The notes below the pieces were generated by a model that worked only from the letters and a program-made list of their open reading frames with translations, was not told the origin of the DNA and searched no databases. The translations under genes were made by a program, and so were the position numbers. 64,000 bases of DNA from Minisyncoccia bacterium (lineage in GTDB: Bacteria > Patescibacteriota > Minisyncoccia > Phycocordibacterales > UBA9973), in NCBI GenBank assembly GCA_038323465.1, contig JBBQGX010000001.1:10980-74979 (forward strand). The letters run 5' to 3'. Positions 5,799 through 50,756 of the stretch are shown in pieces (position 1 is the stretch's first letter; every line of letters begins with the position of its first letter).

Positions 5799-6932
5799 TT
5801 ATGATATTAATTCATGACTTTGGGCTATTTTGATAGCTTCTTCAGCAATTTTTAAAGCTGCGTCTGGAGAGGCAAATTTTAGAGCACTTTTTTTCATCAA
5901 AATGAGTTTTTCTTTGTTATTTATCATTTTATCAATTTCAGAAATAAGTAGATGAGGAGTGAGATTCCCTTCATCTATTACTTCAGCGGCTCCACTTCGG
6001 GCATAATTATAAGCATTTTTTCTCTGGTGATTTCCATTACTATTTGTGATAGGAATAATTATTGAAGGAATACCCCATGAAGCTATTTCAAATATCATTG
6101 AACCTGCTCGCGAGATAACAATTGTAGCGATCCCTGCTGCCATACGAGTAGCTAGATTATTCAAGTACGGCAAAGGAACATATCTAGTAATATTGTCATT
6201 ATTCTCCATAACAAGTTTTGAACGACCTTGTACATCTTCGATATTGTTGATACCAGCTTGATGAATAATTTGATATTTAGATAGAAGATCAGGTAATACT
6301 TCAATGATTATGTTATTAATGATTTCAGCACCGAGAGACCCTCCAACAACTAATATAACTGGTAAGTCAGAAGTAAGTTTAAAGAATTCATAAGCTCCTT
6401 CAGAGTCACCGTGCAAAATATTTTTCCTTATAGGTTGACCAGTGAGAGCTGTTTTTTCTTTTGGTAAATATTCAATCGCTTCAGGCCATGAGATCGCGAC
6501 TTTCTGAGCAAATTTGGCGGTCCAGACATTCAATCTCCCTGGGTATGAATCTGATTCATGAACAATCACTGGGATACGGAGCAATTTGGCGGCAAAGACA
6601 GCTGGAAAGGCAGCGTAACCACCTTTTGATATTATGACATCAGGATATATAAAAAACATACTAATCAAACCAAAAAACATACCTGTCGCAGTTTTAAATA
6701 AGTCAGAGATATTTCGGAAAGAAAAATATAAACGCATTTTACCTGAAGGAATTTGAACATAAGTAATACCATTTTCAAAAAGCATACGTTTGTCGTAAGG
6801 ATGGTCGGACATATAATAAAGTTTCAAATCAATGATTTTCTGTTTATCAGAAACTTCCACAAGTTTTTCAGCAATAGCGATAAGTGGGTAAAAATGCCCA
6901 CCTGTTCCACCCCCTGTAAGTAATATTTTCAT
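5799..6932 (-). CDS. murG: UDP-GlcNAc:lipid I N-acetylglucosaminyltransferase
   Basis: GT28 fold with the N-terminal G-loop GGGTGGHFYPL. It lies next to ftsW and mraY in the conserved dcw order. Confidence 0.9.
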   Translation of the reverse strand: MKILLTGGGTGGHFYPLIAIAEKLVEVSDKQKIIDLKLYYMSDHPYDKRMLFENGITYVQIPSGKMRLYFSFRNISDLFKTATGMFFGLISMFFIYPDVIISKGGYAAFPAVFAAKLLRIPVIVHESDSYPGRLNVWTAKFAQKVAISWPEAIEYLPKEKTALTGQPIRKNILHGDSEGAYEFFKLTSDLPVILVVGGSLGAEIINNIIIEVLPDLLSKYQIIHQAGINNIEDVQGRSKLVMENNDNITRYVPLPYLNNLATRMAAGIATIVISRAGSMIFEIASWGIPSIIIPITNSNGNHQRKNAYNYARSGAAEVIDEGNLTPHLLISEIDKMINNKEKLILMKKSALKFASPDAALKIAEEAIKIAQSHELIS

Positions 6933-28394: not shown

Positions 28395-30557
28395 TTAACC
28401 AACTAATTCTTTTTTTGTTCTCAGGTATTGATTGTTGAGATCAATGATTGATTGAGGTATTTTTCTTTCTTGTATAATTCTTAGTTCATCATACAAACCA
28501 CTCAAAATATCTTTCATATTACCCACATTGTTTTGTTTTGTAAATTTTTCTATACCATAACTATTAGATATAGATGGTATCGGAACTTTTAAAACACTAG
28601 TTCCTGAAGATTTTTTAAGTTCCGCTTCTTTATTAGTTATATTTGTTGTCATTTCTGTTAATTTAGTATCAAAATCAAATAAAACATCTTCCCATTCTTT
28701 TTTACCCTTCCCTGTAAAGAAAAACTTTGGTTTCTTTAATTCATAATCACTTTTTTTTACAGAATAAATACGGATATCTTTTTTGCCTTGATCTATTTCA
28801 GACTGAAGACTCTCTATTTTTTTATCAATCGAGGGTATTCTAATAAGACCACGACTAAAATTTATATCATTATCTGCTGGTACAGAAGATTCAAACTTAG
28901 TAAGTTCCTCTATGGCTTCCAGTGCTTGTTTTCCACGAGATTCAAATTCTTTTATAACTGAAGTTATCTGGTTTAAATTAACAGCTCTTAATTCTATTTC
29001 TTCTCCTTTCTGTATTCCATCTCTAAATTCTACTTCAGCTAAATAAAAATCAATAACAGATTTCATTTTATTAATAACCTTCTCTTTATCCTCTTCTATT
29101 TTCTTAATAAAATCTTCAACATATAGTTTTTCCTCATCAAAAGAAGTATCTTTATTGGGTGATTTTTTATGATAGCTCCCACCAAGAGAATAAGGTTCAT
29201 TACCATAATGCATTGAACTATTTATAGAAACAGTTTCCTCGCAAATGTTTTTTCCAAACAAATAAAAATCATTTTCATTTTTTATATTTTTTAATTTATC
29301 TATATTAGCTTTTAAATCCTGAGTTCTAATTTCTAAAACGCCTTGCAGTTTAACATAATTAAATTCTGGTATAAATTTATCACGACTCTCTAAATTTTCT
29401 TTAAATTTAAGACCTTTATTTTTATCAAAAGAATCCTCTGGTTTAAAAGATAATATATAATCAATACTGGCTGAACCATCTCTATATCCGTATTCGAATT
29501 TTTTAATATCAACTGAAACCCCAAAATTTTTATACAGCTCTGTGTGTTTTTTCTCTAATTCATGAATAAATTCTCTTTTTACTTGTTCGAATTTATCCAT
29601 AAGAGATCTTGCTTTACCTTTCTCTTCTTCAGAAAAAGATGATATTCCTTCTTTTGCCTTTTTTAAATCTAAAACAACTGAATTTTTTTCAAAAGATTCA
29701 TTAATTTTATCACTATAAAATTTTTTTAATGTTTCTTGTAGTACATCTTTTCCATAAACAGATTCAGTCTTCATAACTTCTTTATCATTTGATAAAAGTT
29801 CTGGAGCAAAGACAAAATTATCAATATTTACATGGTCATTTTCAACTTTAATCTCTAATCCTTTTACATAAAGAATAATTTTTTGACCTTCATTTTCAAT
29901 ATTAAAAGTTACCGGAGTAATATCCTTTTCTAGTTCTTTTGAAAGATTTTCTATGATCATTTCTCTCTCTTCTGGAATTTTTACTTTTTCTTTAATTAAT
30001 TCATTTTCAATCTTCCCAAGTCTTTCATTTATGGAATTACTTAAAAAAGTATAAAAATAATCATGACTTGACTCTTCTTTTGGAATTACAACACCTAATT
30101 CTTGTAACTTTAAAATAAGAGCTTCATTTGTCTCTTTTAATCCATCTTTATTTAATAATGATTTTTTGTAATCTAATACTTCATCTGCATCAGGATTTTT
30201 ATCAACCAAATCCTCCGTATTTTTAATACCAGCTTCTTCTAAAACACTCTTTAATTCAGGGTCTTTATCGGCACTTTCTATAATAGAGTCTAAGGTAACC
30301 TTACTAGAAGAAACTTCATTCATGACTTGATTTCTATATTCTTTCATCCCTGTACCACTTTCTTTTTTATTACTTGAATCTGATTTAAAATTCAAAGAAT
30401 TCTGAATTATTTCAAGTAATTGTTTTTGATTTTCAAGTTTTTGAATATTAGAATTTGCTACTTCAACTTCTCCTTTCTTTATTTCTTGCCCTTCTTTTTC
30501 TTTTTGAGATCTTAAATCATTTGCTTTATCTAGAAATGACGCCTTGATTGTTACCAT
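28395..30557 (-). CDS. Large K/E-rich hypothetical protein (720 aa) immediately downstream of dnaJ
   Basis: Long ORF whose composition is consistent with extended helical/coiled-coil segments. No TM helix or signal peptide. No recognisable catalytic motif. A 46-bp gap from dnaJ suggests co-transcription. Confidence 0.6.
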   Translation of the reverse strand: MVTIKASFLDKANDLRSQKEKEGQEIKKGEVEVANSNIQKLENQKQLLEIIQNSLNFKSDSSNKKESGTGMKEYRNQVMNEVSSSKVTLDSIIESADKDPELKSVLEEAGIKNTEDLVDKNPDADEVLDYKKSLLNKDGLKETNEALILKLQELGVVIPKEESSHDYFYTFLSNSINERLGKIENELIKEKVKIPEEREMIIENLSKELEKDITPVTFNIENEGQKIILYVKGLEIKVENDHVNIDNFVFAPELLSNDKEVMKTESVYGKDVLQETLKKFYSDKINESFEKNSVVLDLKKAKEGISSFSEEEKGKARSLMDKFEQVKREFIHELEKKHTELYKNFGVSVDIKKFEYGYRDGSASIDYILSFKPEDSFDKNKGLKFKENLESRDKFIPEFNYVKLQGVLEIRTQDLKANIDKLKNIKNENDFYLFGKNICEETVSINSSMHYGNEPYSLGGSYHKKSPNKDTSFDEEKLYVEDFIKKIEEDKEKVINKMKSVIDFYLAEVEFRDGIQKGEEIELRAVNLNQITSVIKEFESRGKQALEAIEELTKFESSVPADNDINFSRGLIRIPSIDKKIESLQSEIDQGKKDIRIYSVKKSDYELKKPKFFFTGKGKKEWEDVLFDFDTKLTEMTTNITNKEAELKKSSGTSVLKVPIPSISNSYGIEKFTKQNNVGNMKDILSGLYDELRIIQERKIPQSIIDLNNQYLRTKKELVG

Positions 30558-30603
30558 AAATATAATTTAAATTAATAAATATTGAGATTAAATAATAGTG
30601 TTA

Positions 30604-31698
30604 TTATAAACCATCTTCACGTAGTTTGTCAATGAGTTCCCTATTTTTACGAGAAAGTTTTGTGGGCATATCTATATTAATTTTGATTATAATATCACCT
30701 CGTCCGCGAGTGGAAGGTACACCTTTGCCACGAACACGAAGCATCTCGCCATTATTGATACCTTCGGGAATCTTTACCTCCATATTGTGATTATCTAGTG
30801 TTTTTAAATTATAAGTCATCCCGAGAAGCGCATCTGTTAATTTGATTTTCAAATCCATCGTTAGATTTAGTCCATCACGAGAATATATTGAGTGAGATTT
30901 TACATTTAATTTCAAATACAAATCGCCAGATTCACCACCCTGAATCGCTTCACCCTTACCATTGACTCGTAATGTCTCACCATTGCTGACCCCAGCTGGA
31001 ATTTTTACTTTTATTTCTTCATCTTTCTTTTTGACTCCAGAGCCATGACAATCATTACATTTATCAGATGGAATCTGACCAGATCCAAAACAATTCTCAC
31101 AAGTCTTTACACTTGCAAAATTCCCAAGTATTGAACGTCTTATTTCTTTAACTTGACCTTGTCCATTACAAACAGAACATGTATTCATCTTGGTTCCTGG
31201 TTTACTACCGGTGCCATCACAACTATCACATTTTGATTGTTTATTTATTCGGACGATATGTTCTATCCCAAAAATAGCATCTGAGAATGTGAGATTTATC
31301 TCCATAGATAAATCTCTGCCTCTTTTTACTTTTTGTCTGCTACGTCCACCACCACCAAAAAAATCTCCAAAGATATCACCTAGATCACCCATATCAAATT
31401 CAACCCCACCGTTTTGACCACTGAAATCAAAACCCCCAAATCCACCTTGCCCTCCAAATCCACCACCTCCACCAGGAAATCCTTGTGGTCCATCTGCATT
31501 ACCAAACTGATCAAACGATGCACGTTTTTTATCATCAGAAAGAACCTGATAAGCTTCATTGGCTTCTTTGAATTTAGTATCATCACCCTTGTTTTTATCT
31601 GGATGATATTTATGAGCCATTTTATGAAATGCTTTCTTTATTTCATCCTTTGAGGCATTTTTTTCTATTCCTAATATTTTATAATAATCTTTAGACAT
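30604..31698 (-). CDS. dnaJ: Chaperone DnaJ
   Basis: J-domain with HPD (KYHPDKN). G/F-rich region. Four CxxCxGxG zinc-finger repeats. C-terminal substrate-binding domains. Confidence 0.92.
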   Translation of the reverse strand: MSKDYYKILGIEKNASKDEIKKAFHKMAHKYHPDKNKGDDTKFKEANEAYQVLSDDKKRASFDQFGNADGPQGFPGGGGGFGGQGGFGGFDFSGQNGGVEFDMGDLGDIFGDFFGGGGRSRQKVKRGRDLSMEINLTFSDAIFGIEHIVRINKQSKCDSCDGTGSKPGTKMNTCSVCNGQGQVKEIRRSILGNFASVKTCENCFGSGQIPSDKCNDCHGSGVKKKDEEIKVKIPAGVSNGETLRVNGKGEAIQGGESGDLYLKLNVKSHSIYSRDGLNLTMDLKIKLTDALLGMTYNLKTLDNHNMEVKIPEGINNGEMLRVRGKGVPSTRGRGDIIIKINIDMPTKLSRKNRELIDKLREDGL

Positions 31699-31830: not shown

Positions 31831-33729
31831 TTATTTACTTTCTGGATTCTCATTTACTTCTGCTTCTTTGATTTCTGGTTCTTGCTCCTCTGGAATTTTA
31901 TTTTCTGACGAAGAAGTAGATTCAGGATTGGCTTTTGCCATAGCTTCTCCTATCTTTGACATTTCATTTGAAAGTTCCATGACTGCTTTTTTGATTACTT
32001 CAATATCATTACTATCCTTAGCTGTTTTAACTGCTGTAATTTTATTTTCTATTTCTGTTTTTATTTCAGGAGTAACTTTATCACCATATTCTTTTATAGA
32101 TTTCTCTGCTGTGAAAATCATCATTTCAGCAGTATTCTTCTCATCAGCTAATTCTTTTTTCTTTACATCTTCTTCTGCGTGAAGTTCAGCATCATCTTTC
32201 ATCTTTTTTATATCAGCGTCTGTAAGTCCTGAACTTGCTTCTATGCGAATCGATTGAACTTTACCTGAAGCTTTATCCATAGCTTTTACATTCAATATCC
32301 CATTGGCATCAACATCAAAAGTCACTTCGACTTGAGGAATACCTCGTGGTGATGGTGGAATACCATCTAAGATAAATCTACCGAGTGATTTATTGTCAGA
32401 TGCCATAGGACGTTCACCCTGAGTTATATGAATCTCCACAGAAGTCTGATTGTCAGCAGCAGTTGAGAATATTTGTGATTTAGAACTAGGGATTGTAGTA
32501 TTACGCTCTACGAGTTTTGTAGCAACACCACCAAGTGTTTCAATACCAAGTGAAAGTGGTATAACATCAAGCAAAAGAACATCACGAACATCACCCTGAA
32601 GAACTCCAGCTTGAACAGCAGCACCTAGCGCAACAACTTCATCAGGATTAATTGAACGATTTGGTTCTTTGCCGAACAATTTCTTCACTTCTTCCACAAT
32701 TTTTGGCATTCTTGTTTGTCCTCCAACAAGAATGATTTCATTTATTTCACTCATCTTGAATGGAGATGCCTCAATGGCACGCTTTGTGATTTCTATAGAA
32801 CGAGTTACATATTCTTCTGCTAGTGACTCAAGAGTTGCACGAGACATCTTTAAGAGTAAGTGTTTTGGACCTGATGCATCGGAAGTAATAAATGGAATAT
32901 TGATCTCTGATTCCATGGTTGTTGAGAGTTCGTGTTTTGTTTTCTCTGCTGCTTCCTTTAGACGCTGTAGAGCAAGAACATCTTTAGTTACATCAATACC
33001 TGATTCCTTCTTGTATTCATCTGCAATCCATCTGACAACTTTTTGATCGATATCTTCACCACCCATGTGTGAGTCGCCGTCTGTTGATTTAACTTCTATG
33101 ACATCATCTCCAACTTCAAGAACAGAAATATCAAAAGTACCTCCACCAAAGTCATATACGACTATCTTCTCATTTTTCTTTGTATTGAATCCATATGCGA
33201 GAGCTGCAGCAGTAGGCTCGTTGATGATACGCTTTACATCAAGTCCAGCTATTACTCCAGCATCTTTTGTAGCTTTACGTTGAGCATCGTTAAAATACGC
33301 AGGCACAGTAATAACTGCTTCTGTTATTTTCTCGCCGAGTTTTGCTTCAACATCAGCTTTTATTTTACTCAATATCATCGCAGAAATTTCTTCTGGGCGA
33401 AGCCATTTATCTCCCATCTTTGACTCTACTCCACCAGTATTTCCTTTTTGAATCTTGTAAGAAATAGTTTTTTCATCTTTTTGGATTTCTGGGTCATCAT
33501 ACATGTGACCAATAAATCTCTTGATACCAGAAATAGTATTTTCTGGATTTGTAACTGCTTGACGCTTTGCGAGAAGTCCAACCATACGATCACCATTCTT
33601 TGTTATTGTAACAACAGATGGAGTGGTACGTGTACCCTCAATATTTTCTATAATTTTTGGTTGACCACCCTCGATGATAGCTACCGCACTATTTGTTGTA
33701 CCCAAATCTATACCTATTATTTTTGCCAT
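31831..33729 (-). CDS. dnaK: Chaperone DnaK (Hsp70)
   Basis: Hsp70 signatures [16 protein letters not shown] and [11 protein letters not shown]. Length 632 aa. Confidence 0.95.
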
Positions 33730-33876
33730 ATATTTTTTGTAAATTAACTAATAATTAATAATAATAATTTTATAAATTCATAGCAAAGTTATAGTTTGAT
33801 TTTCGCTGTCGCATAGGGCCCCTCTGGGGTAAAGCGCAAGAAAATTAGATTATAACTTTGTGAAGAATTAAATTAA

Positions 33877-33904
33877 TTATATACTAAATAAATTCTTTTG
33901 ACAA
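33877..33904 (-). promoter_or_regulatory. Predicted sigma-70 promoter of dnaK: -35 TTGTCA (complement of 33899-33904), -10 TATAAT (complement of 33877-33882)
   Basis: Near-consensus hexamers with a 16-nt spacer, about 150 nt upstream of the dnaK ATG. The -35 overlaps the left arm of the 30-bp palindrome. Confidence 0.5.
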
Positions 33905-33930
33905 CTATTTAGTGATCACTAAATAGTTGT
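33901..33930. promoter_or_regulatory. 30-bp perfect palindrome ACAACTATTTAGTGA|TCACTAAATAGTTGT, a candidate operator shared by the divergent promoters
   Basis: An exact inverted repeat is seen in the sequence. Its two ends overlap the -35 hexamers of the dnaK promoter and the regulator-gene promoter. It is not a CIRCE, HAIR or CtsR-box sequence. Confidence 0.6.
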
Positions 33931-33958
33931 TGAATATTATATACACTTGTGATACAAT
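33930..33958 (+). promoter_or_regulatory. Predicted sigma-70 promoter of the PaaX-like regulator gene: -35 TTGAAT (33930-33935), 17-nt spacer, -10 TACAAT (33953-33958)
   Basis: Hexamers lie 10 nt upstream of the ATG at 33968. The -35 abuts the right arm of the palindrome. Confidence 0.45.
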
Positions 33959-33967
33959 GTCAATATT

Positions 33968-34495
33968 ATGAAAAAGCGTGATTTTTCAAGGAAAATTATA
34001 AAGATACTATCAGAAAGACCTGCCGTATCAGTCGGAGAACTAGAAGAACGAATTGTTCTTGATAAAGATGGCCTATATGCCTTAAATCGCTCTATAAAGA
34101 GCCTCCGAGATGGTGGACTGATCGAGAACATAGATTCTGGTCAAAACCAATATGCTAAGCTCACAACAGAAGGCAAGAAGAAGGCAAACAGTCTAAAACT
34201 TGAATGCGAAAATGCTATCATAAGTAATACTTGGGATGGATATTGGAGAATCATACTTCTTGATATTCCAGAAGAAAGAAAGAATGAAAGAGAAGCACTT
34301 CGTTACCTTTTGAAAAAAGCAGGATTTGCTTGTCTGAAAAATTCAGTATGGATATCTATTTACCCCTTTGAGCACTTATTCACAAATATTAAAAATGACT
34401 TAAATTTATCTACCGAGCTAATCATAATAGTCACAGATAAAATAGACAAAGAAACAGAAAAGGAATTTTTCTCGCTCTGTGGATTAAATAAATAA
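33968..34495 (+). CDS. PaaX-family-like transcriptional regulator (N-terminal winged helix plus PaaX_C-like domain)
   Basis: The N-terminal wHTH reads KIIKILSERPAVSVGELEERIVLDKDGLYALNRSIKSLRDGGLI. The C-terminal WDGYWRIILLDIPEERKNEREALRYLLKKAGFACLKNSVWIS matches the PaaX C-domain pattern (W.G.W.lv..iPe..R..lr..L...GF..L..svW). At 175 aa it is shorter than E. coli PaaX. Confidence 0.55.
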   Translation: MKKRDFSRKIIKILSERPAVSVGELEERIVLDKDGLYALNRSIKSLRDGGLIENIDSGQNQYAKLTTEGKKKANSLKLECENAIISNTWDGYWRIILLDIPEERKNEREALRYLLKKAGFACLKNSVWISIYPFEHLFTNIKNDLNLSTELIIIVTDKIDKETEKEFFSLCGLNK

Positions 34496-34555
34496 AATCA
34501 TAAAACATCCACAGAAATAATCTTTTTAAAAAGATTATTTCTGCTCTTGTTTTAT

Positions 34556-35197
34556 TTATTTTTTATATTCAAAAATATTTACTCTAGCTGGACGGATTAT
34601 ACGGTCACCAAGCCTATAACCGACTTGAATTATTTTCTCTATAGAATGATCTTTTTCTTCTTTATCTGTAACAATTGATTCTATAGATTCATGAAGAATA
34701 GGATCAAACTTCACTCCCACTTCATCAATTTTTTCTATGCCAGACTCCGCAAATCCATTTATAAATTGAGAATAGATGTATTCAACGCCCATACGCCAAT
34801 TCTTGTCTACTTTTTCCCAAGCTTCTTTGTTTGCGAAAGCCATATCAAAACTATCAAGAGCAGGAAGTAGATTCCTTGCAAATTTTTCTTTAGTTACAAC
34901 AGAACTCTTTGTTTGATGATCACCGTGCTCTTTTTGTAGATTGATATAGTCAGCCTTTGCTCTCTGCCAACCAGTCAAATATTCCTCCTTTTCTGCTCTG
35001 CAAAGTTTCAAATCCTCACGAAGTTTTTTAGTTACATCTTTAGATGATAATGCTTCTCCATCTTCTGTGCTATCTACATATGTGACATCTGAAACATCTG
35101 AGACATCATGAGTACTCTCAAGTTCCTTTGCCAATAGTTCACTTACTTCTTTATTTTTATCTTCATCATTCATCTTTGTACTATAACAAAAAATCAA
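34556..35197 (-). CDS. grpE: Nucleotide exchange factor GrpE
   Basis: Acidic N-terminal tail, a long paired helix and a C-terminal beta domain (IIRPARVNIF). Length 213 aa. Confidence 0.9.
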   Translation of the reverse strand: MIFCYSTKMNDEDKNKEVSELLAKELESTHDVSDVSDVTYVDSTEDGEALSSKDVTKKLREDLKLCRAEKEEYLTGWQRAKADYINLQKEHGDHQTKSSVVTKEKFARNLLPALDSFDMAFANKEAWEKVDKNWRMGVEYIYSQFINGFAESGIEKIDEVGVKFDPILHESIESIVTDKEEKDHSIEKIIQVGYRLGDRIIRPARVNIFEYKK

Positions 35198-35237
35198 ACT
35201 TTTTTCAAAGTTCGATTTTTTTATAAATTATATAAAA

Positions 35238-49412: not shown

Positions 49413-50756
49413 TTATATAGGCAAATTGGAAGGCGGTTTGGCAATTTTTGACTCAATACGCTTAAAGCTTGGAGTTTCTGAAACTATACCTGGGAAATGA
49501 AAAATAGTAGCTAACTCTTCAGTTGAGAGAACCATGAGTTCTGGTCTACCAGCTGGTAGAAAAGCTTTCAAAACTGCTGGTAATTTGAAAGTATATTGAA
49601 GCGGTGGATGGAAAAATATACGAAGTCTATACCAATCAAGCATTCTTTTCTTTTTGGCAGTCAGAGCAAGGCCAGTCGGATCAGACCATGGTGCATCAAA
49701 TTGAGTAGCATTAATACGGTCAAATTCATTAATGGAAGGTTGAGCATATTGACGGAAAAGCAGACGTACGTCGCGACGCAAATTCTGAAATTGATCTTCA
49801 GTGCAAAGTCTCTTATCAGAAAGAGTTACAACTCGAATACCAGTATCAAAATGCAACTGTTGAATATTGGCTGTCATTTGCTTCACCATTGGATCAAGAA
49901 AAGATGGAGCACGTACTTCCATAACAGAACCTCCTGGTCCTAACCCCCCCGTTGCACTGAATTTAGTATAAGGTTTAAGTAACTCACGCATAAATTCTTC
50001 GGCTGCGACATAAAAGTCGACATGTTTTTTTTGAATGTGACTATGATACATCTTGGTACATTGTCTTATTAATATTTGAATCCAAACTTGTTGACCATTA
50101 GGGATAGAACCAAGATACTCTATAACTGGTGTAATCGGATCAATTTTAAATTCTTCTTTAATACCCGTTTTCATATCATCACCCATAGCCTTGTATGTTT
50201 TAATTGGTAGAAAATCTTCTTTCATTTTTCTAAATTCACAGCCCCAAGTATTCCAATCTCCGTCTTTTTTATATTGAGGCACATGAAAAGCATAATCATC
50301 AACTTCAACAACTTTAGCTTGGGGATACTGGCCGTAAATTTGAGTCTCAACGAGGTTACGCATCCTGGTTGGTGTACGAATGTAAAAATGAACCCGTCCA
50401 TCAATGGAAGCAATCTCGAGTGAAAACCAAAACCATGGAGCTCCTTGTATGTATTGCTCCCAGAAACCTTTATTACTTCGATGGTAGAAGGCATTGGCTA
50501 TAACTAATTCCATGGCTGCTGGTGATTTAATAACATCACGAGGAACTTGAACTTCAAGTAGAACCCATTTGATTCCCATGATAAATCGTTCTTGTCTATA
50601 ATGATGCCATAAAATAAGTGCCAGATATGTTAAAGGAATCGGCATTAAATAGCCTATTCCAACTATCAAGACTTGGAGGAGATTCAAATTGTGAGAATTA
50701 AGAAAGTCTTGGATCATAGATATAATAAATTGAGAATTATAAAACTCATAAAACAA
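49413..50756 (-). CDS. Hypothetical membrane-anchored protein (447 aa) with W/F/Y/Q/R/P-rich composition unlike its neighbours
   Basis: One N-terminal TM helix. The amino-acid composition departs from the K/N/I-rich proteome in this window. The C-terminus ends ...LSTEELATIFHFPG. No motif I can place confidently. Confidence 0.6.
   Translation of the reverse strand: MFYEFYNSQFIISMIQDFLNSHNLNLLQVLIVGIGYLMPIPLTYLALILWHHYRQERFIMGIKWVLLEVQVPRDVIKSPAAMELVIANAFYHRSNKGFWEQYIQGAPWFWFSLEIASIDGRVHFYIRTPTRMRNLVETQIYGQYPQAKVVEVDDYAFHVPQYKKDGDWNTWGCEFRKMKEDFLPIKTYKAMGDDMKTGIKEEFKIDPITPVIEYLGSIPNGQQVWIQILIRQCTKMYHSHIQKKHVDFYVAAEEFMRELLKPYTKFSATGGLGPGGSVMEVRAPSFLDPMVKQMTANIQQLHFDTGIRVVTLSDKRLCTEDQFQNLRRDVRLLFRQYAQPSINEFDRINATQFDAPWSDPTGLALTAKKKRMLDWYRLRIFFHPPLQYTFKLPAVLKAFLPAGRPELMVLSTEELATIFHFPGIVSETPSFKRIESKIAKPPSNLPI

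What the first reader, a model, noticed from the sequence alone, without database searches (positions are those of the whole stretch)
33877..33967. 30-bp perfect palindrome overlapping both -35 boxes of the divergent dnaK and regulator promoters
ACAACTATTTAGTGA|TCACTAAATAGTTGT (33901-33930) is an exact 15+15 inverted repeat. Its left arm overlaps the -35 TTGTCA of a near-consensus minus-strand promoter for dnaK (-10 TATAAT, 16-nt spacer). Its right arm abuts the -35 TTGAAT of a plus-strand promoter (17-nt spacer, -10 TACAAT) that drives the regulator gene starting at 33968. This geometry is the classic arrangement of an autoregulated repressor controlling a divergent target. The sequence is not CIRCE (TTAGCACTC-N9-GAGTGCTAA), HAIR or a CtsR box, and no hrcA lies next to grpE-dnaK here. 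It may therefore be the operator of an uncharacterised heat-shock control circuit.
Basis: seen in the sequence. Interest (0 to 1): 0.72.

Follow-up and report, generated by a model that had tools for sequence, protein, structure and literature searches.

The report
Conserved dnaK operator of CPR bacteria
The palindrome is real and recurs upstream of the dnaK chaperone operon in at least 79 related uncultivated (CPR/Paceibacteria) genomes, where it is most likely the binding site through which the small PaaX-like protein encoded next door shuts off dnaK and its own gene, a chaperone-control circuit I found described nowhere.

Summary
The exact 15+15 palindrome at 33901-33930 is confirmed and is not chance: the longest arm in 300 simulations was 13. 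It is the local copy of a 30-bp motif, ACAAGTATTTcGyG-ry-CrCgAAATACTTGT. That motif occurs exactly once in 79 of 80 related genome loci, always at the promoter of the dnaK operon. It nearly always lies 33-38 nt before the ATG of a divergent 175-aa gene. That protein is a winged-helix plus Cas2-like (PaaX_M) regulator that lacks PaaX's C-terminal effector domain. The mirrored operator columns show no covariation, so the symmetry reflects two protein half-sites rather than a hairpin. No further copies were found in the window, in 705 kb of related loci or in a metagenome scan, so the circuit looks dedicated to dnaK-dnaJ; grpE has its own promoter. The motif is not CIRCE, HAIR or a CtsR box. My best reading is an autoregulated repressor of the chaperone operon. 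Repression and the heat or misfolding signal are inferred, not shown. No paper describing it was found.

The parts
33901..33930 (.). 30-bp operator (window version ACAACTATTTAGTGATCACTAAATAGTTGT; family consensus ACAAGTATTTcGyGryCrCgAAATACTTGT)
   Evidence: Exact palindrome. It scores 36.4 bits against the PWM and is the only site of at least 8 bits in the window. It is conserved in 79 of 80 loci.
33936..33963 (-). P1: consensus sigma70-type promoter TTGACA(33963..33958)-16-TATAAT(33941..33936). The predicted start near 33929 places the operator at about +1..+29 of a dnaK transcript.
   Evidence: 12/12 match. It is one of only two 12/12 promoters in 64 kb, against 0.09 expected. The equivalent promoter reaches at least 10/12 in 80% of 80 loci, against 1% with shuffled flanks. 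The start site is inferred.
33876..33904 (-). P2: dnaK promoter TTGTCA(33904..33899)-17-TATAAT(33881..33876). Its -35 overlaps the left operator arm by 4 nt; predicted start near 33869.
   Evidence: 11/12 match. A -10 at a fixed offset (-25/-24) is present in 55 of 80 loci. At least 10/12 in 61% of loci, against 5% with shuffled flanks.
33930..33958 (+). Preg: regulator promoter TTGAAT(33930-33935)-17-TGaTACAAT (TG 33950-33951, -10 33953-33958). Predicted start near 33965, giving a nearly leaderless mRNA.
   Evidence: 9/12 plus TG. At least 9/12 in 46% of loci, against 14% with shuffled flanks. The operator-to-ATG distance is 33-38 nt in 45 of 70 loci. There is no Shine-Dalgarno sequence.
33968..34495 (+). 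[quoted passage not shown]
   Evidence: Pfam PF20803 at 1.9e-20. TIGR02277 scores 36.9 bits, far below its cut-off of 264.55, and covers model positions 41-162 of 279. AF2 model pLDDT 82.9. Best Foldseek hit is E. coli PaaX 8A39, E 4e-6 over 172 columns. 1443 homologues were found.
31831..33729 (-). dnaK, the controlled target
   Evidence: HSP70 at 3.5e-239. It is divergent from the regulator in 75 of 80 loci.
30604..31698 (-). dnaJ, downstream of dnaK and probably co-transcribed
   Evidence: ORF translation. tblastn synteny. No terminator-like site was found on the minus strand between dnaK and dnaJ.
33730..33869 (-). dnaK 5' leader from P2 (about 140 nt). It contains a variable, probably inserted, element: imperfect 41-nt inverted arms at 33764-33804 and 33840-33880 around a GC-rich core.
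   Evidence: fold z = -3.0. One search shows it is absent in L001 and L003 and different in L002, L004, L005 and L006.
34512..34543 (.). Bidirectional terminator-like 16+16 palindrome between the convergent regulator and grpE genes
34556..35197 (-). grpE, a neighbour that is not under the operator. Its likely start is ATG 35173, with its own promoter TTGAAA-17-TATAGT at 35208..35180 (leaderless).
   Evidence: No operator-like site of at least 8 bits lies there.

Best explanation
The 30-bp palindrome is the operator of a dedicated transcription factor for the dnaK-dnaJ chaperone operon in Paceibacteria-type CPR bacteria. The factor is the 175-aa protein encoded next to it, which has a winged-helix DNA-binding domain fused to a Cas2-like (PaaX_M) dimerisation domain. 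It most likely binds as a dimer. Each half-site, ACAAGTATTTCGYG, would be read by one subunit, with information peaks about one helical turn apart (C2, G12/G14, C17/C19, G29). Bound protein would cover three promoters at once. P1 is a consensus promoter whose transcript starts at the right edge of the operator and runs through it to dnaK. P2 is a second dnaK promoter whose -35 lies in the left arm. Preg is the regulator's own nearly leaderless promoter, whose -35 abuts or overlaps the right arm. The protein would therefore repress dnaK-dnaJ and itself. Release under proteotoxic or heat stress would fire a very strong promoter. The protein lacks PaaX's C-terminal effector domain, so control by phenylacetyl-CoA is unlikely. 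The signal is more probably the folding state of the repressor itself, either through chaperone titration by DnaK/DnaJ as for HspR, or through intrinsic thermolability as for RheA. Shown here: the motif, its conservation, its linkage to dnaK and to the regulator, the promoter-like elements and the protein fold. Inferred: binding by this protein, the sign of regulation, the transcription starts and the signal.
For: The palindrome is exact and non-random. Of 80 species-level genome loci holding the regulator, 75 have dnaK divergent upstream and 64 have grpE downstream on the opposite strand, mostly directly convergent. A match of at least 17/24 to the consensus is present in 69 of 70 intergenic regions. 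Exactly one site of at least 12 bits occurs per locus in 79 of 80 loci across 705 kb, always in the dnaK/regulator upstream region; the 80th locus is cut at the regulator. In an operator-first metagenome scan, the 14 hits of at least 33 bits all lie next to the regulator and/or dnaK, and no other hit exceeds 22.3 bits. Where insertions separate the genes, the operator stays in front of the dnaK operon (L024, L064, L072, L079), or extra ORFs join that operon (L031, L035, L036, L044, L065). A more distant orthologue keeps a 27.6-bit operator next to dnaK (L206). Another (L204) has reg<->grpE-orf-orf-dnaK with a variant palindrome. Mirrored columns are complementary exactly as often as independent columns would predict, for example 42 observed against 37.4 expected at positions 13/18. 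The symmetry therefore comes from two conserved half-sites, which is the signature of a dimeric protein. Non-dnaK paralogues in Uhrbacteria carry TTTTGCGATCGCAAAA or GGTGCGATCGCAAA palindromes before their own genes, so the GYG-N2-CRC core travels with the protein family. The E. coli paaZ-paaA region holds TGATTC-type boxes (the PaaX-binding motif given in the review PMC9493321) that read TGATTCGTG and TGATTCGCG; these share TTCGYG with the half-site TTTCGYG. On promoters, P1 reaches at least 10/12 in 80% of loci (1% shuffled) and P2 in 61% (5%). Preg reaches at least 9/12 in 46% (14%), and the mirror-image control is at chance. P1 is one of only two 12/12 promoters in the window. Near-consensus promoters do not need an activator, which favours repression. 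The fold is wHTH plus a ferredoxin-like domain, and the best structural match is PaaX 8A39.
Against: There is no experimental binding, footprint or transcription-start data, and everything rests on comparative sequence analysis. The loci were collected through the regulator, so co-occurrence is partly built in; only the metagenome scan was operator-first. The centre of the operator lies about -46 to -50 from the predicted P2 and Preg starts, a position that does not by itself exclude activation. Preg is only weakly conserved as a consensus promoter. In L064, L072 and L079 the regulator has no nearby operator, so autoregulation is not universal. No heat-shock data exist, and I could not examine groESL, clpB or hrcA in any of these genomes (one search found none in the DNA held).
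Confidence: 0.7

Rival explanations
1. The same protein and site are involved, but the protein is an activator or a dual-function regulator. Bound around -46 to -50 of P2 and Preg, it would recruit RNA polymerase to the divergent promoters under stress rather than blocking them.
For: The operator centre (33915.5) lies 46-50 nt upstream of the predicted P2 and Preg starts (geometry). Preg is a weak consensus match (9/12). An embedded TTGACA-18-AATAGT element at 33898-33927 puts the operator between a -35 and a -10, as at MerR-type promoters.
Against: P1 (12/12) and P2 (11/12) are near-consensus and should be active on their own. The operator physically covers the P1 start region and both -35 hexamers. 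The best characterised relative, PaaX, is a repressor that competes with RNA polymerase (PMC9493321). The embedded spacer is 18 bp, not the 19-20 bp typical of MerR-type promoters (own knowledge).
Confidence: 0.12
2. The palindrome acts mainly as a nucleic-acid hairpin rather than as a protein site. It would form a 5'-terminal stem-loop on the P1 transcript and control mRNA stability, translation or attenuation, as proposed for the RNA-level role of CIRCE.
For: If P1 is used, the whole palindrome is transcribed at the 5' end of the dnaK leader. The scan flags the sequence as a 17-pair stem. In the window the stem would be perfect.
Against: There is no covariation: the complementarity of mirrored columns equals the expectation for independent columns, and typical sites have only 9-13 of 15 pairs. 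Specific bases, not pairing, are conserved: C2, G12, G14, C17, C19 and G29 are 95-99% conserved. No conserved U-run follows the stem. No Rfam family matches.
Confidence: 0.08
3. The motif is a real operator, but it is bound by a different, unlinked regulator. The adjacent PaaX-like gene would merely be syntenic with dnaK.
For: Binding has not been tested. In L064, L072 and L079 the regulator sits 0.7-3.7 kb from the operator.
Against: Paralogues of the protein at unrelated loci carry the same core palindrome before their own genes. Bona fide PaaX boxes share TTCGYG. The operator-to-ATG spacing of 33-38 nt is fixed in 45 of 70 loci. Two distant orthologues with an AT-rich operator centre (L204, L208) also differ in the recognition helix, RS to RT, though this is anecdotal.
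Confidence: 0.07
4. The palindrome is fortuitous, or is a structural or mobile DNA element such as a dif-like recombination site or the end of a REP/MITE element.
For: The genome is AT-rich. Small hairpin insertions and an IS200/RAYT-like transposase do occur in these intergenic regions.
Against: An arm of 15 exceeds all 300 simulations. The element is single-copy and fixed in position relative to dnaK in 79 genomes. GC skew is monotonic across the window, so this is not a replication terminus. The inserted hairpin elements have different sequences and variable positions.
Confidence: 0.01

Closest known systems
HrcA-CIRCE (Bacillus and many other bacteria)
   Same: A dedicated repressor of the dnaK operon acts through a long, highly conserved inverted repeat placed at or just downstream of a strong housekeeping-sigma promoter, so that the operator is transcribed into the leader. 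The regulator gene is part of the same locus. In the classical layout, hrcA-grpE-dnaK-dnaJ, the regulator sits next to grpE (own knowledge of the family).
   Different: The protein family is unrelated: there is no HrcA Pfam hit, only PaaX_M. The operator sequence and architecture differ, 14-N2-14 against 9-N9-9, and the window has no CIRCE within 3 mismatches. The regulator is divergent rather than the first gene of the operon. grpE is outside the controlled unit. No groESL site was found.
HspR-HAIR (Streptomyces, Mycobacterium, Helicobacter)
   Same: The regulator is encoded at the dnaK locus and is essentially dedicated to the dnaK operon. DnaK-feedback control is the model I favour here by analogy (own knowledge).
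   Different: HspR is a MerR-family protein encoded as the last gene of the operon. HAIR (CTTGAGT-N7-ACTCAAG) is absent near dnaK here. No MerR domain is present.
RheA-hsp18 (Streptomyces albus)
   Same: An autoregulated repressor is transcribed divergently from its single heat-shock target, with a shared palindromic operator in the intergenic region. RheA needs no small-molecule ligand and senses temperature itself (own knowledge).
   Different: The target is hsp18, not dnaK, and the operator sequence is different. I did not test any relationship between the two proteins.
PaaX, repressor of phenylacetate catabolism (E. coli, Pseudomonas)
   Same: It has the same two N-terminal domains, a winged helix and a Cas2-like dimerisation domain. 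It is a repressor that occludes RNA polymerase and autoregulates (PMC9493321). The half-site core TTCGYG is shared with the boxes in the E. coli paaZ-paaA region.
   Different: The CPR protein lacks the C-terminal helical domain, which the review describes as binding phenylacetyl-CoA. It fails the PaaX equivalog model (36.9 bits against a cut-off of 264.55). Its half-sites are 2 bp apart, not TGATTC-N27-GAATCA. Its genomic context is chaperone genes rather than paa genes.

Membership tests
HrcA-CIRCE | Operator TTAGCACTC-N9-GAGTGCTAA | tested here: not met
   No match within 3 mismatches anywhere in the window. The operator sequence is unrelated.
HrcA-CIRCE | Regulator belongs to the HrcA protein family | tested here: not met
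   Pfam gives only PaaX_M plus weak wHTH hits. NCBIfam gives no HrcA hit.
HrcA-CIRCE | Operator lies between a vegetative promoter and the chaperone operon and is transcribed | tested here: inconclusive
   The conserved P1 promoter predicts this, but no transcription start has been mapped.
HrcA-CIRCE | Repressor activity maintained by GroEL | not testable with these tools
   This needs biochemistry.
HspR-HAIR | HAIR inverted repeat CTTGAGT-N7-ACTCAAG upstream of dnaK | tested here: not met
   There are only 3 chance-level hits, each with 3 mismatches, and none lies in the dnaK upstream region.
HspR-HAIR | MerR-family regulator | tested here: not met
   No MerR domain. The fold is wHTH plus a Cas2-like domain.
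HspR-HAIR | DnaK acts as co-repressor | not testable with these tools
   This needs EMSA with and without DnaK.
CtsR | Tandem heptad operator RGTCAAA-NAN-RGTCAAA | tested here: not met
   The single hit, with 2 mismatches, is at 49437 and is at chance level.
PaaX family | [quoted passage not shown] | tested here: met
   The AF2 model shows H6-16, H22-29, H34-48, a wing at E52-56/E61-65, and H67-79. Foldseek hits include PaaX, MarR and ArsR proteins.
PaaX family | Central Cas2-like domain (PF20803 PaaX_M) | tested here: met
   E 1.9e-20, 73 bits against a cut-off of 24, residues 87-166.
PaaX family | C-terminal helical effector domain and a full-length match to the PaaX equivalog model | tested here: not met
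   The protein ends at residue 175. TIGR02277 matches only model positions 41-162 of 279, at 36.9 bits against a cut-off of 264.55.
PaaX family | Association with paa or styrene catabolic genes and phenylacetyl-CoA as inducer | tested here: not met
   The context is dnaK/grpE in 75 of 80 loci. Ligand binding cannot be tested here.
PaaX family | PaaX box (TGATTC-N27-GAATCA) | tested here: not met
   Only the TTCGYG core is shared, and the arrangement is 14-N2-14 (PMC9493321).
RheA-type divergent autoregulated heat-shock repressor | Regulator divergent from its single stress-gene target, with a shared palindromic operator | tested here: met
RheA-type divergent autoregulated heat-shock repressor | Protein homology to RheA and intrinsic thermosensing | not tested
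   No RheA profile or sequence was compared. Thermosensing needs experiments.

The most novel reading that the evidence does not exclude
This is the founding example of a chaperone-operon repressor family specific to CPR/Patescibacteria. It would be a PaaX relative stripped of its ligand domain that occupies the regulatory niche held elsewhere by HrcA or HspR. It would sense proteotoxic stress through its own folding or through DnaK/DnaJ (negative feedback). It would also control one of the strongest promoters in the genome by sitting on three overlapping promoters at once. That would make it the first defined transcription factor-operator pair, and the first stress circuit, for this uncultivated radiation.
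Probability: 0.35. Interest if true: 0.75.

Novelty: new variant of a known kind. Interest (0 to 1): 0.62.

Why it matters
Very little appears to be known about gene regulation in CPR/Patescibacteria: my literature searches found no description of this circuit. These bacteria have tiny genomes and almost no cultured members. Here one regulator, its exact DNA site and its target operon can be stated with base-pair precision from sequence alone, and they are conserved across at least 79 species-level genomes. The protein is small and the site is 30 bp, so the pair can be tested directly in vitro without culturing the organism. If confirmed, it adds a new protein family to the short list of bacterial heat-shock repressors (HrcA, HspR, CtsR, RheA). 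It would also show that the PaaX scaffold works without its ligand domain. Finally, it corrects misleading database names for this family, which include 'PaaX', 'Cas2 endonuclease' and 'hypothetical protein'.

Tried and rejected
- **Rfam.** A search of 33000-35000 at permissive E-values gave only sub-threshold chance hits.
- **Known heat-shock operators.** Scans of the window for CIRCE, HAIR and the CtsR box found nothing relevant.
- **Further copies of the half-site or full operator.** A half-site search found only chance-level 3-mismatch hits and a full-operator PWM scan found nothing else of at least 8 bits. There was never a second site of at least 12 bits in 705 kb of related loci. Intermediate metagenome hits of 10-22 bits lie in unrelated, often GC-rich contigs; the one inspected (L178) lies inside a coding sequence.
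- **Other chaperone genes.** I looked for groEL, groES, clpB, hsp20 and hrcA in all DNA held, to test for a wider regulon. tblastn found none within about 5 kb of any dnaK locus. The window's large ORFs are tRNA synthetases, PBPs, a histidine kinase and similar.
- **Hairpin hypothesis.** Rejected because mirrored columns show no covariation.
- **dif or replication-terminus site.** Rejected on monotonic GC skew and on the gene-linked position.
- **L087.** It looked like an operator without a regulator. It is an IS200/RAYT-like insertion followed by the contig end.
- **Solved structures.** A sequence search gave nothing significant, best E 0.06.
- **Literature.** Seven full-text searches on PaaX-like proteins, dnaK, HrcA, heat shock, Patescibacteria/CPR/Parcubacteria and regulons found no description of this circuit. 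PMC1483010 is not held.
- **From memory only.** The E. coli PaaX box consensus WWTRTGATTCGYGWT is recalled, not sourced. The E. coli sequence itself was checked.
Full report
**Observation**

The sequence ACAACTATTTAGTGA|TCACTAAATAGTTGT occupies 33901-33930 as an exact 15+15 inverted repeat with no spacer. In 300 first-order Markov simulations of the 64-kb window the longest perfect arm was 13. The window's only other long perfect palindrome is a 16+16 terminator-like element at 34512-34543.

The palindrome lies in the 238-bp gap between two genes:
- dnaK (31831-33729, minus strand; HSP70 at 3.5e-239);
- a 175-aa ORF (33968-34495, plus strand).

dnaJ follows dnaK. grpE (34556-35197, minus strand) is convergent with the 175-aa gene.

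- TTGTCA-17-TATAAT on the minus strand at 33904..33876, 11/12. The spacer is 17, not 16.
- TTGAAT-17-TACAAT with a TG extension on the plus strand at 33930-33958, 9/12.

**Organism and protein**

Homologues and related loci come from MAGs labelled Candidatus Paceibacterota, Nomurabacteria, Minisyncoccia or Patescibacteria. These are CPR bacteria, and the window is about 32% GC.

The protein matches Pfam PaaX_M, the Cas2-like central domain of PaaX, at 1.9e-20. It gives only weak winged-helix hits at the N-terminus. It matches the PaaX equivalog TIGR02277 only over model positions 41-162 of 279, at 36.9 bits against a cut-off of 264.55. An AlphaFold2 model (pLDDT 82.9) shows a winged helix-turn-helix followed by a ferredoxin-like beta-alpha-beta-beta-alpha-beta-alpha domain. 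The best Foldseek match in the PDB is E. coli PaaX (8A39, E 4e-6, 172 aligned columns), followed by 3L09, 3KFW and many MarR and ArsR proteins.

The protein is therefore a PaaX-like factor without PaaX's C-terminal domain, which a review describes as the phenylacetyl-CoA-binding part (PMC9493321).

The orthologous group is compact and strongly conserved. The best 120 of 1443 hits are at least 60% identical. The Cas2-like domain and the recognition helix, Y37-A-x-x-R41-S-x-K44, are nearly invariant. The group sits inside a large family of small wHTH-PaaX_M proteins: 3810 clusters at 50% identity reach E<=1e-3, but only 22 reach E<=1e-30.

**Comparative test**

A scan of one genome per species found at least 258 genomes encoding a relative, and I kept the best 80 loci.
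- In 75 of 80 loci dnaK lies divergently upstream of the regulator. The other five show no dnaK hit: three are contigs of 1.7-5.5 kb, and two have only about 340-700 nt upstream of the regulator.
- In 64 of 80 loci grpE lies downstream on the opposite strand, mostly directly convergent.
- 69 of 70 dnaK-regulator intergenic regions carry a match of at least 17/24 to ACAAGTATTTNGNGNNCNCNAAATACTTGT.
- In 45 of 70 the site ends 33-38 nt before the regulator's ATG.

A symmetrised PWM built from 58 distinct sites has its information peaks at C2, G12, G14, C17, C19 and G29. With it:
- the window's site scores 36.4 bits, and nothing else in the window reaches 8 bits;
- across 705 kb of related loci each locus has exactly one site of at least 12 bits, always upstream of dnaK/regulator; the one exception is a locus truncated at the regulator.

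An operator-first scan of metagenome contigs used the loose core TATTTNGYGNNCRCNAAATA and returned 120 stretches. The 14 that score at least 33 bits over the full 30-mer are all next to the regulator and/or dnaK. No other hit exceeds 22.3 bits, and those lie in unrelated contexts.

Where the two genes have been separated, one of two things holds:
- the operator remains in front of the dnaK operon (L024, L064, L072, L079);
- the inserted ORFs lie between the operator and dnaK in the same orientation, joining that operon (L031, L035, L036, L044, L065).

More distant orthologues behave as follows:
- L206 (P0143) keeps a 27.6-bit operator between the regulator and dnaK.
- L204 (P0141) has the regulator divergent from grpE-orf-orf-dnaK. 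A variant palindrome, ACAAGTTTTTCATATATATGAAA, sits next to the chaperone operon.
- P0150 is no longer linked to dnaK.

**Protein site or hairpin?**

Across 76 distinct operators, mirrored columns are complementary just as often as two independent columns would be. At positions 13/18 the count is 42 observed against 37.4 expected, and at 11/20 it is 36 against 31.8. Most sites have only 9-13 of 15 complementary pairs. The window's 15 of 15 is unique. The symmetry therefore arises from two separately conserved half-sites, as expected for a dimeric DNA-binding protein, and not from selection for base pairing.

The central dinucleotide is almost always the AC/GT step, 33 against 32 in the two orientations. 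The window's GATC centre is unusual.

**Is the neighbouring protein the binder?**

Three observations point to it.
- Paralogues in Candidatus Uhrbacteria are not linked to dnaK, yet they carry CCATTTATTTTGCGATCGCAAAATAAATGG (L126) or ...GGTGCGATCGCAAATAAATGAGT (L201) directly upstream of their own genes. The T-rich-GYG-N2-CRC-A-rich core therefore follows the protein family.
- The E. coli paaZ-paaA intergenic region contains TGATTC-type boxes, the PaaX-binding motif given in PMC9493321. They read TGATTCGTG and TGATTCGCG, sharing TTCGYG with the CPR half-site TTTCGYG.
- The two distant orthologues with AT-rich operator centres (L204, L208) also change the otherwise nearly invariant R-S of the recognition helix to R-T. 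This is anecdotal.

**Promoter architecture**

I anchored all 80 loci on the operator and scored promoter-like elements at fixed positions.

| Element | Position | Loci at threshold | Shuffled flanks |
|---|---|---|---|
| P1 | minus strand, regulator side, -10 ending 2-9 nt from the operator | 80% at >=10/12 (mean 10.5/12) | 1% |
| P2 | -35 overlapping the left arm | 61% at >=10/12 | 5% |
| Preg | -35 at the right edge of the operator | 46% at >=9/12 | 14% |
| Mirror control | plus strand, dnaK side, facing inward | 0% at >=10/12 (9% at >=9/12) | 2% (10%) |

In the window P1 is TTGACA-16-TATAAT at 33963..33936, a 12/12 match. It is one of only two 12/12 matches in 64 kb, against 0.09 expected by chance. 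Its predicted start, near 33929, places the operator at +1..+29.

P1 and Preg occupy the same DNA in opposite orientations, so RNA polymerase can occupy only one of them at a time. The regulator has no Shine-Dalgarno sequence, and its ATG lies 9 nt after the -10, so its mRNA should be almost leaderless. grpE has the same design: TG-extended TATAGT ending 7 nt before ATG 35173. grpE has no operator, so the controlled unit is dnaK-dnaJ only.

**Mechanism**

My best-supported reading is that the 175-aa protein binds the operator as a dimer and occludes P1, P2 and Preg. It would thereby repress dnaK-dnaJ and itself. De-repression would unleash a consensus-strength promoter. Repression is favoured for three reasons:
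- the promoters are near consensus and should not need an activator;
- the operator covers a start site and two -35 elements;
- PaaX itself is an RNA-polymerase-occluding, autoregulated repressor (PMC9493321).

The signal is unknown. Because the effector domain of PaaX is missing, I favour chaperone titration (HspR-like) or intrinsic thermolability (RheA-like). The near-invariance of the Cas2-like domain across species would fit a conserved protein partner, but that is speculation.

Rivals are an activator role, an RNA hairpin, another binder and chance. They are weighed in the structured fields, and none is favoured by the data.

**Comparison with known systems and novelty**

In logic the circuit resembles three known systems:
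- HrcA-CIRCE: a long conserved inverted repeat at or after a strong vegetative promoter of the dnaK operon;
- HspR-HAIR: a dedicated regulator encoded at the dnaK locus;
- RheA-hsp18: a divergent, autoregulated repressor with a single target.

It fails every sequence and protein-family criterion of the first two and of CtsR. It shares fold and half-site core with PaaX, but not PaaX's C-terminal domain, equivalog score, box architecture or genomic context.

Seven full-text searches found no description of this regulator, motif or circuit. Databases call the proteins 'hypothetical', 'PaaX' or, for paralogues, 'Cas2 endonuclease'.

I rate it a new variant of a known kind: a dedicated repressor-operator control of a chaperone operon, carried out by a previously unassigned protein family in CPR bacteria.

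**Limits**

- There are no binding, transcription-start or expression data.
- The genome loci were selected through the regulator.
- Whole genomes could not be scanned, so sites before groESL or clpB and the presence of hrcA remain open. One search found none of these genes in the DNA held.
- The 'heat-shock' label rests only on the identity of the target.

Noticed in passing
window 33936-33963 (minus strand): A 12/12 consensus promoter, TTGACA-16-TATAAT, overlaps the regulator's own promoter in the opposite orientation and reads through the operator towards dnaK.
   Followed up: yes
window 30603-30632 (minus strand) and ORF 28395-30557: The only other 12/12 consensus promoter in the window sits inside the 3' end of dnaJ. 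It lies just upstream of a 720-aa K/E-rich ORF that has no Pfam match, so this ORF has its own strong promoter directly after the chaperone operon.
   Followed up: partly
window 34512-34543: A perfect 16+16 palindrome, CAGAAATAATCTTTTTAAAAAGATTATTTCTG, has T-runs on both strands. It lies between the convergent regulator and grpE genes and looks like a bidirectional intrinsic terminator.
   Followed up: partly
window 35173-35208 (minus strand): grpE probably starts at ATG 35173 rather than TTG 35197. A TG-extended promoter, TTGAAA-17-TATAGT, ends 7 nt before that ATG, so the mRNA would be leaderless. No operator lies there, so grpE is outside the dnaK circuit. In the distant orthologous locus L204, grpE is inside the operon that faces the regulator.
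   Followed up: partly
window 33764-33880 (dnaK leader): Imperfect 41-nt inverted arms flank a GC-rich core (about 33805-33839). The leader folds better than shuffles (z = -3.0). The segment is absent from the closest relatives L001 and L003 and different in L002, L004, L005 and L006. It looks like an inserted MITE- or REP-like element rather than a conserved RNA thermometer.
   Followed up: partly
L026, L030, L061, L062, L075, L080 (after the regulator's ATGTCAA); L009, L047, L050; L087 10150-10782; L204 3416-4000: The operator-regulator gap is a hotspot for small GC-rich hairpin insertions. Some appear to be flanked by a duplicated TCAA, and others have CCCGTTAGAA terminal inverted repeats. 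L087 carries an IS200/RAYT-like HUH transposase ORF with two GTGAAGGACGGTCCTTCAC hairpins. L204 carries several GTCATTCTGAAT repeats.
   Followed up: partly
operator positions 15-16 (window 33915-33916): Across 76 operators the central step is AC or GT (33 against 32) and almost never self-complementary. The window's GATC centre is one of only two exceptions. The site therefore has an intrinsic polarity whose orientation relative to the genes appears random.
   Followed up: partly
L126 985-1014; L201 about 5950-5985; L202: Candidatus Uhrbacteria genomes encode at least two paralogues of the regulator that are not linked to dnaK and are annotated as 'Cas2 endonuclease'. L126 and L201 have a related palindrome (TTTTGCGATCGCAAAA type) before the regulator gene. 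This suggests a wider family of autoregulated small PaaX_M factors with unknown targets.
   Followed up: partly
window 33956-33970: A four-codon mini-ORF, ATG TCA ATA TTA TGA, has a stop that overlaps the regulator's ATG (ATGA). In many other loci ATGTCAA is itself the regulator's start (M-S-R/K...), so the window lineage appears to have shifted its start codon.
   Followed up: no
window 33730-33760 and aligned loci (alignment A2): The sequence ATTATTAGTTAATTA-(n)-AAAAAAnATATG immediately upstream of the dnaK start codon is conserved among close relatives and contains no Shine-Dalgarno motif. Its role, whether in translation initiation or as a further promoter, is unknown.
   Followed up: no
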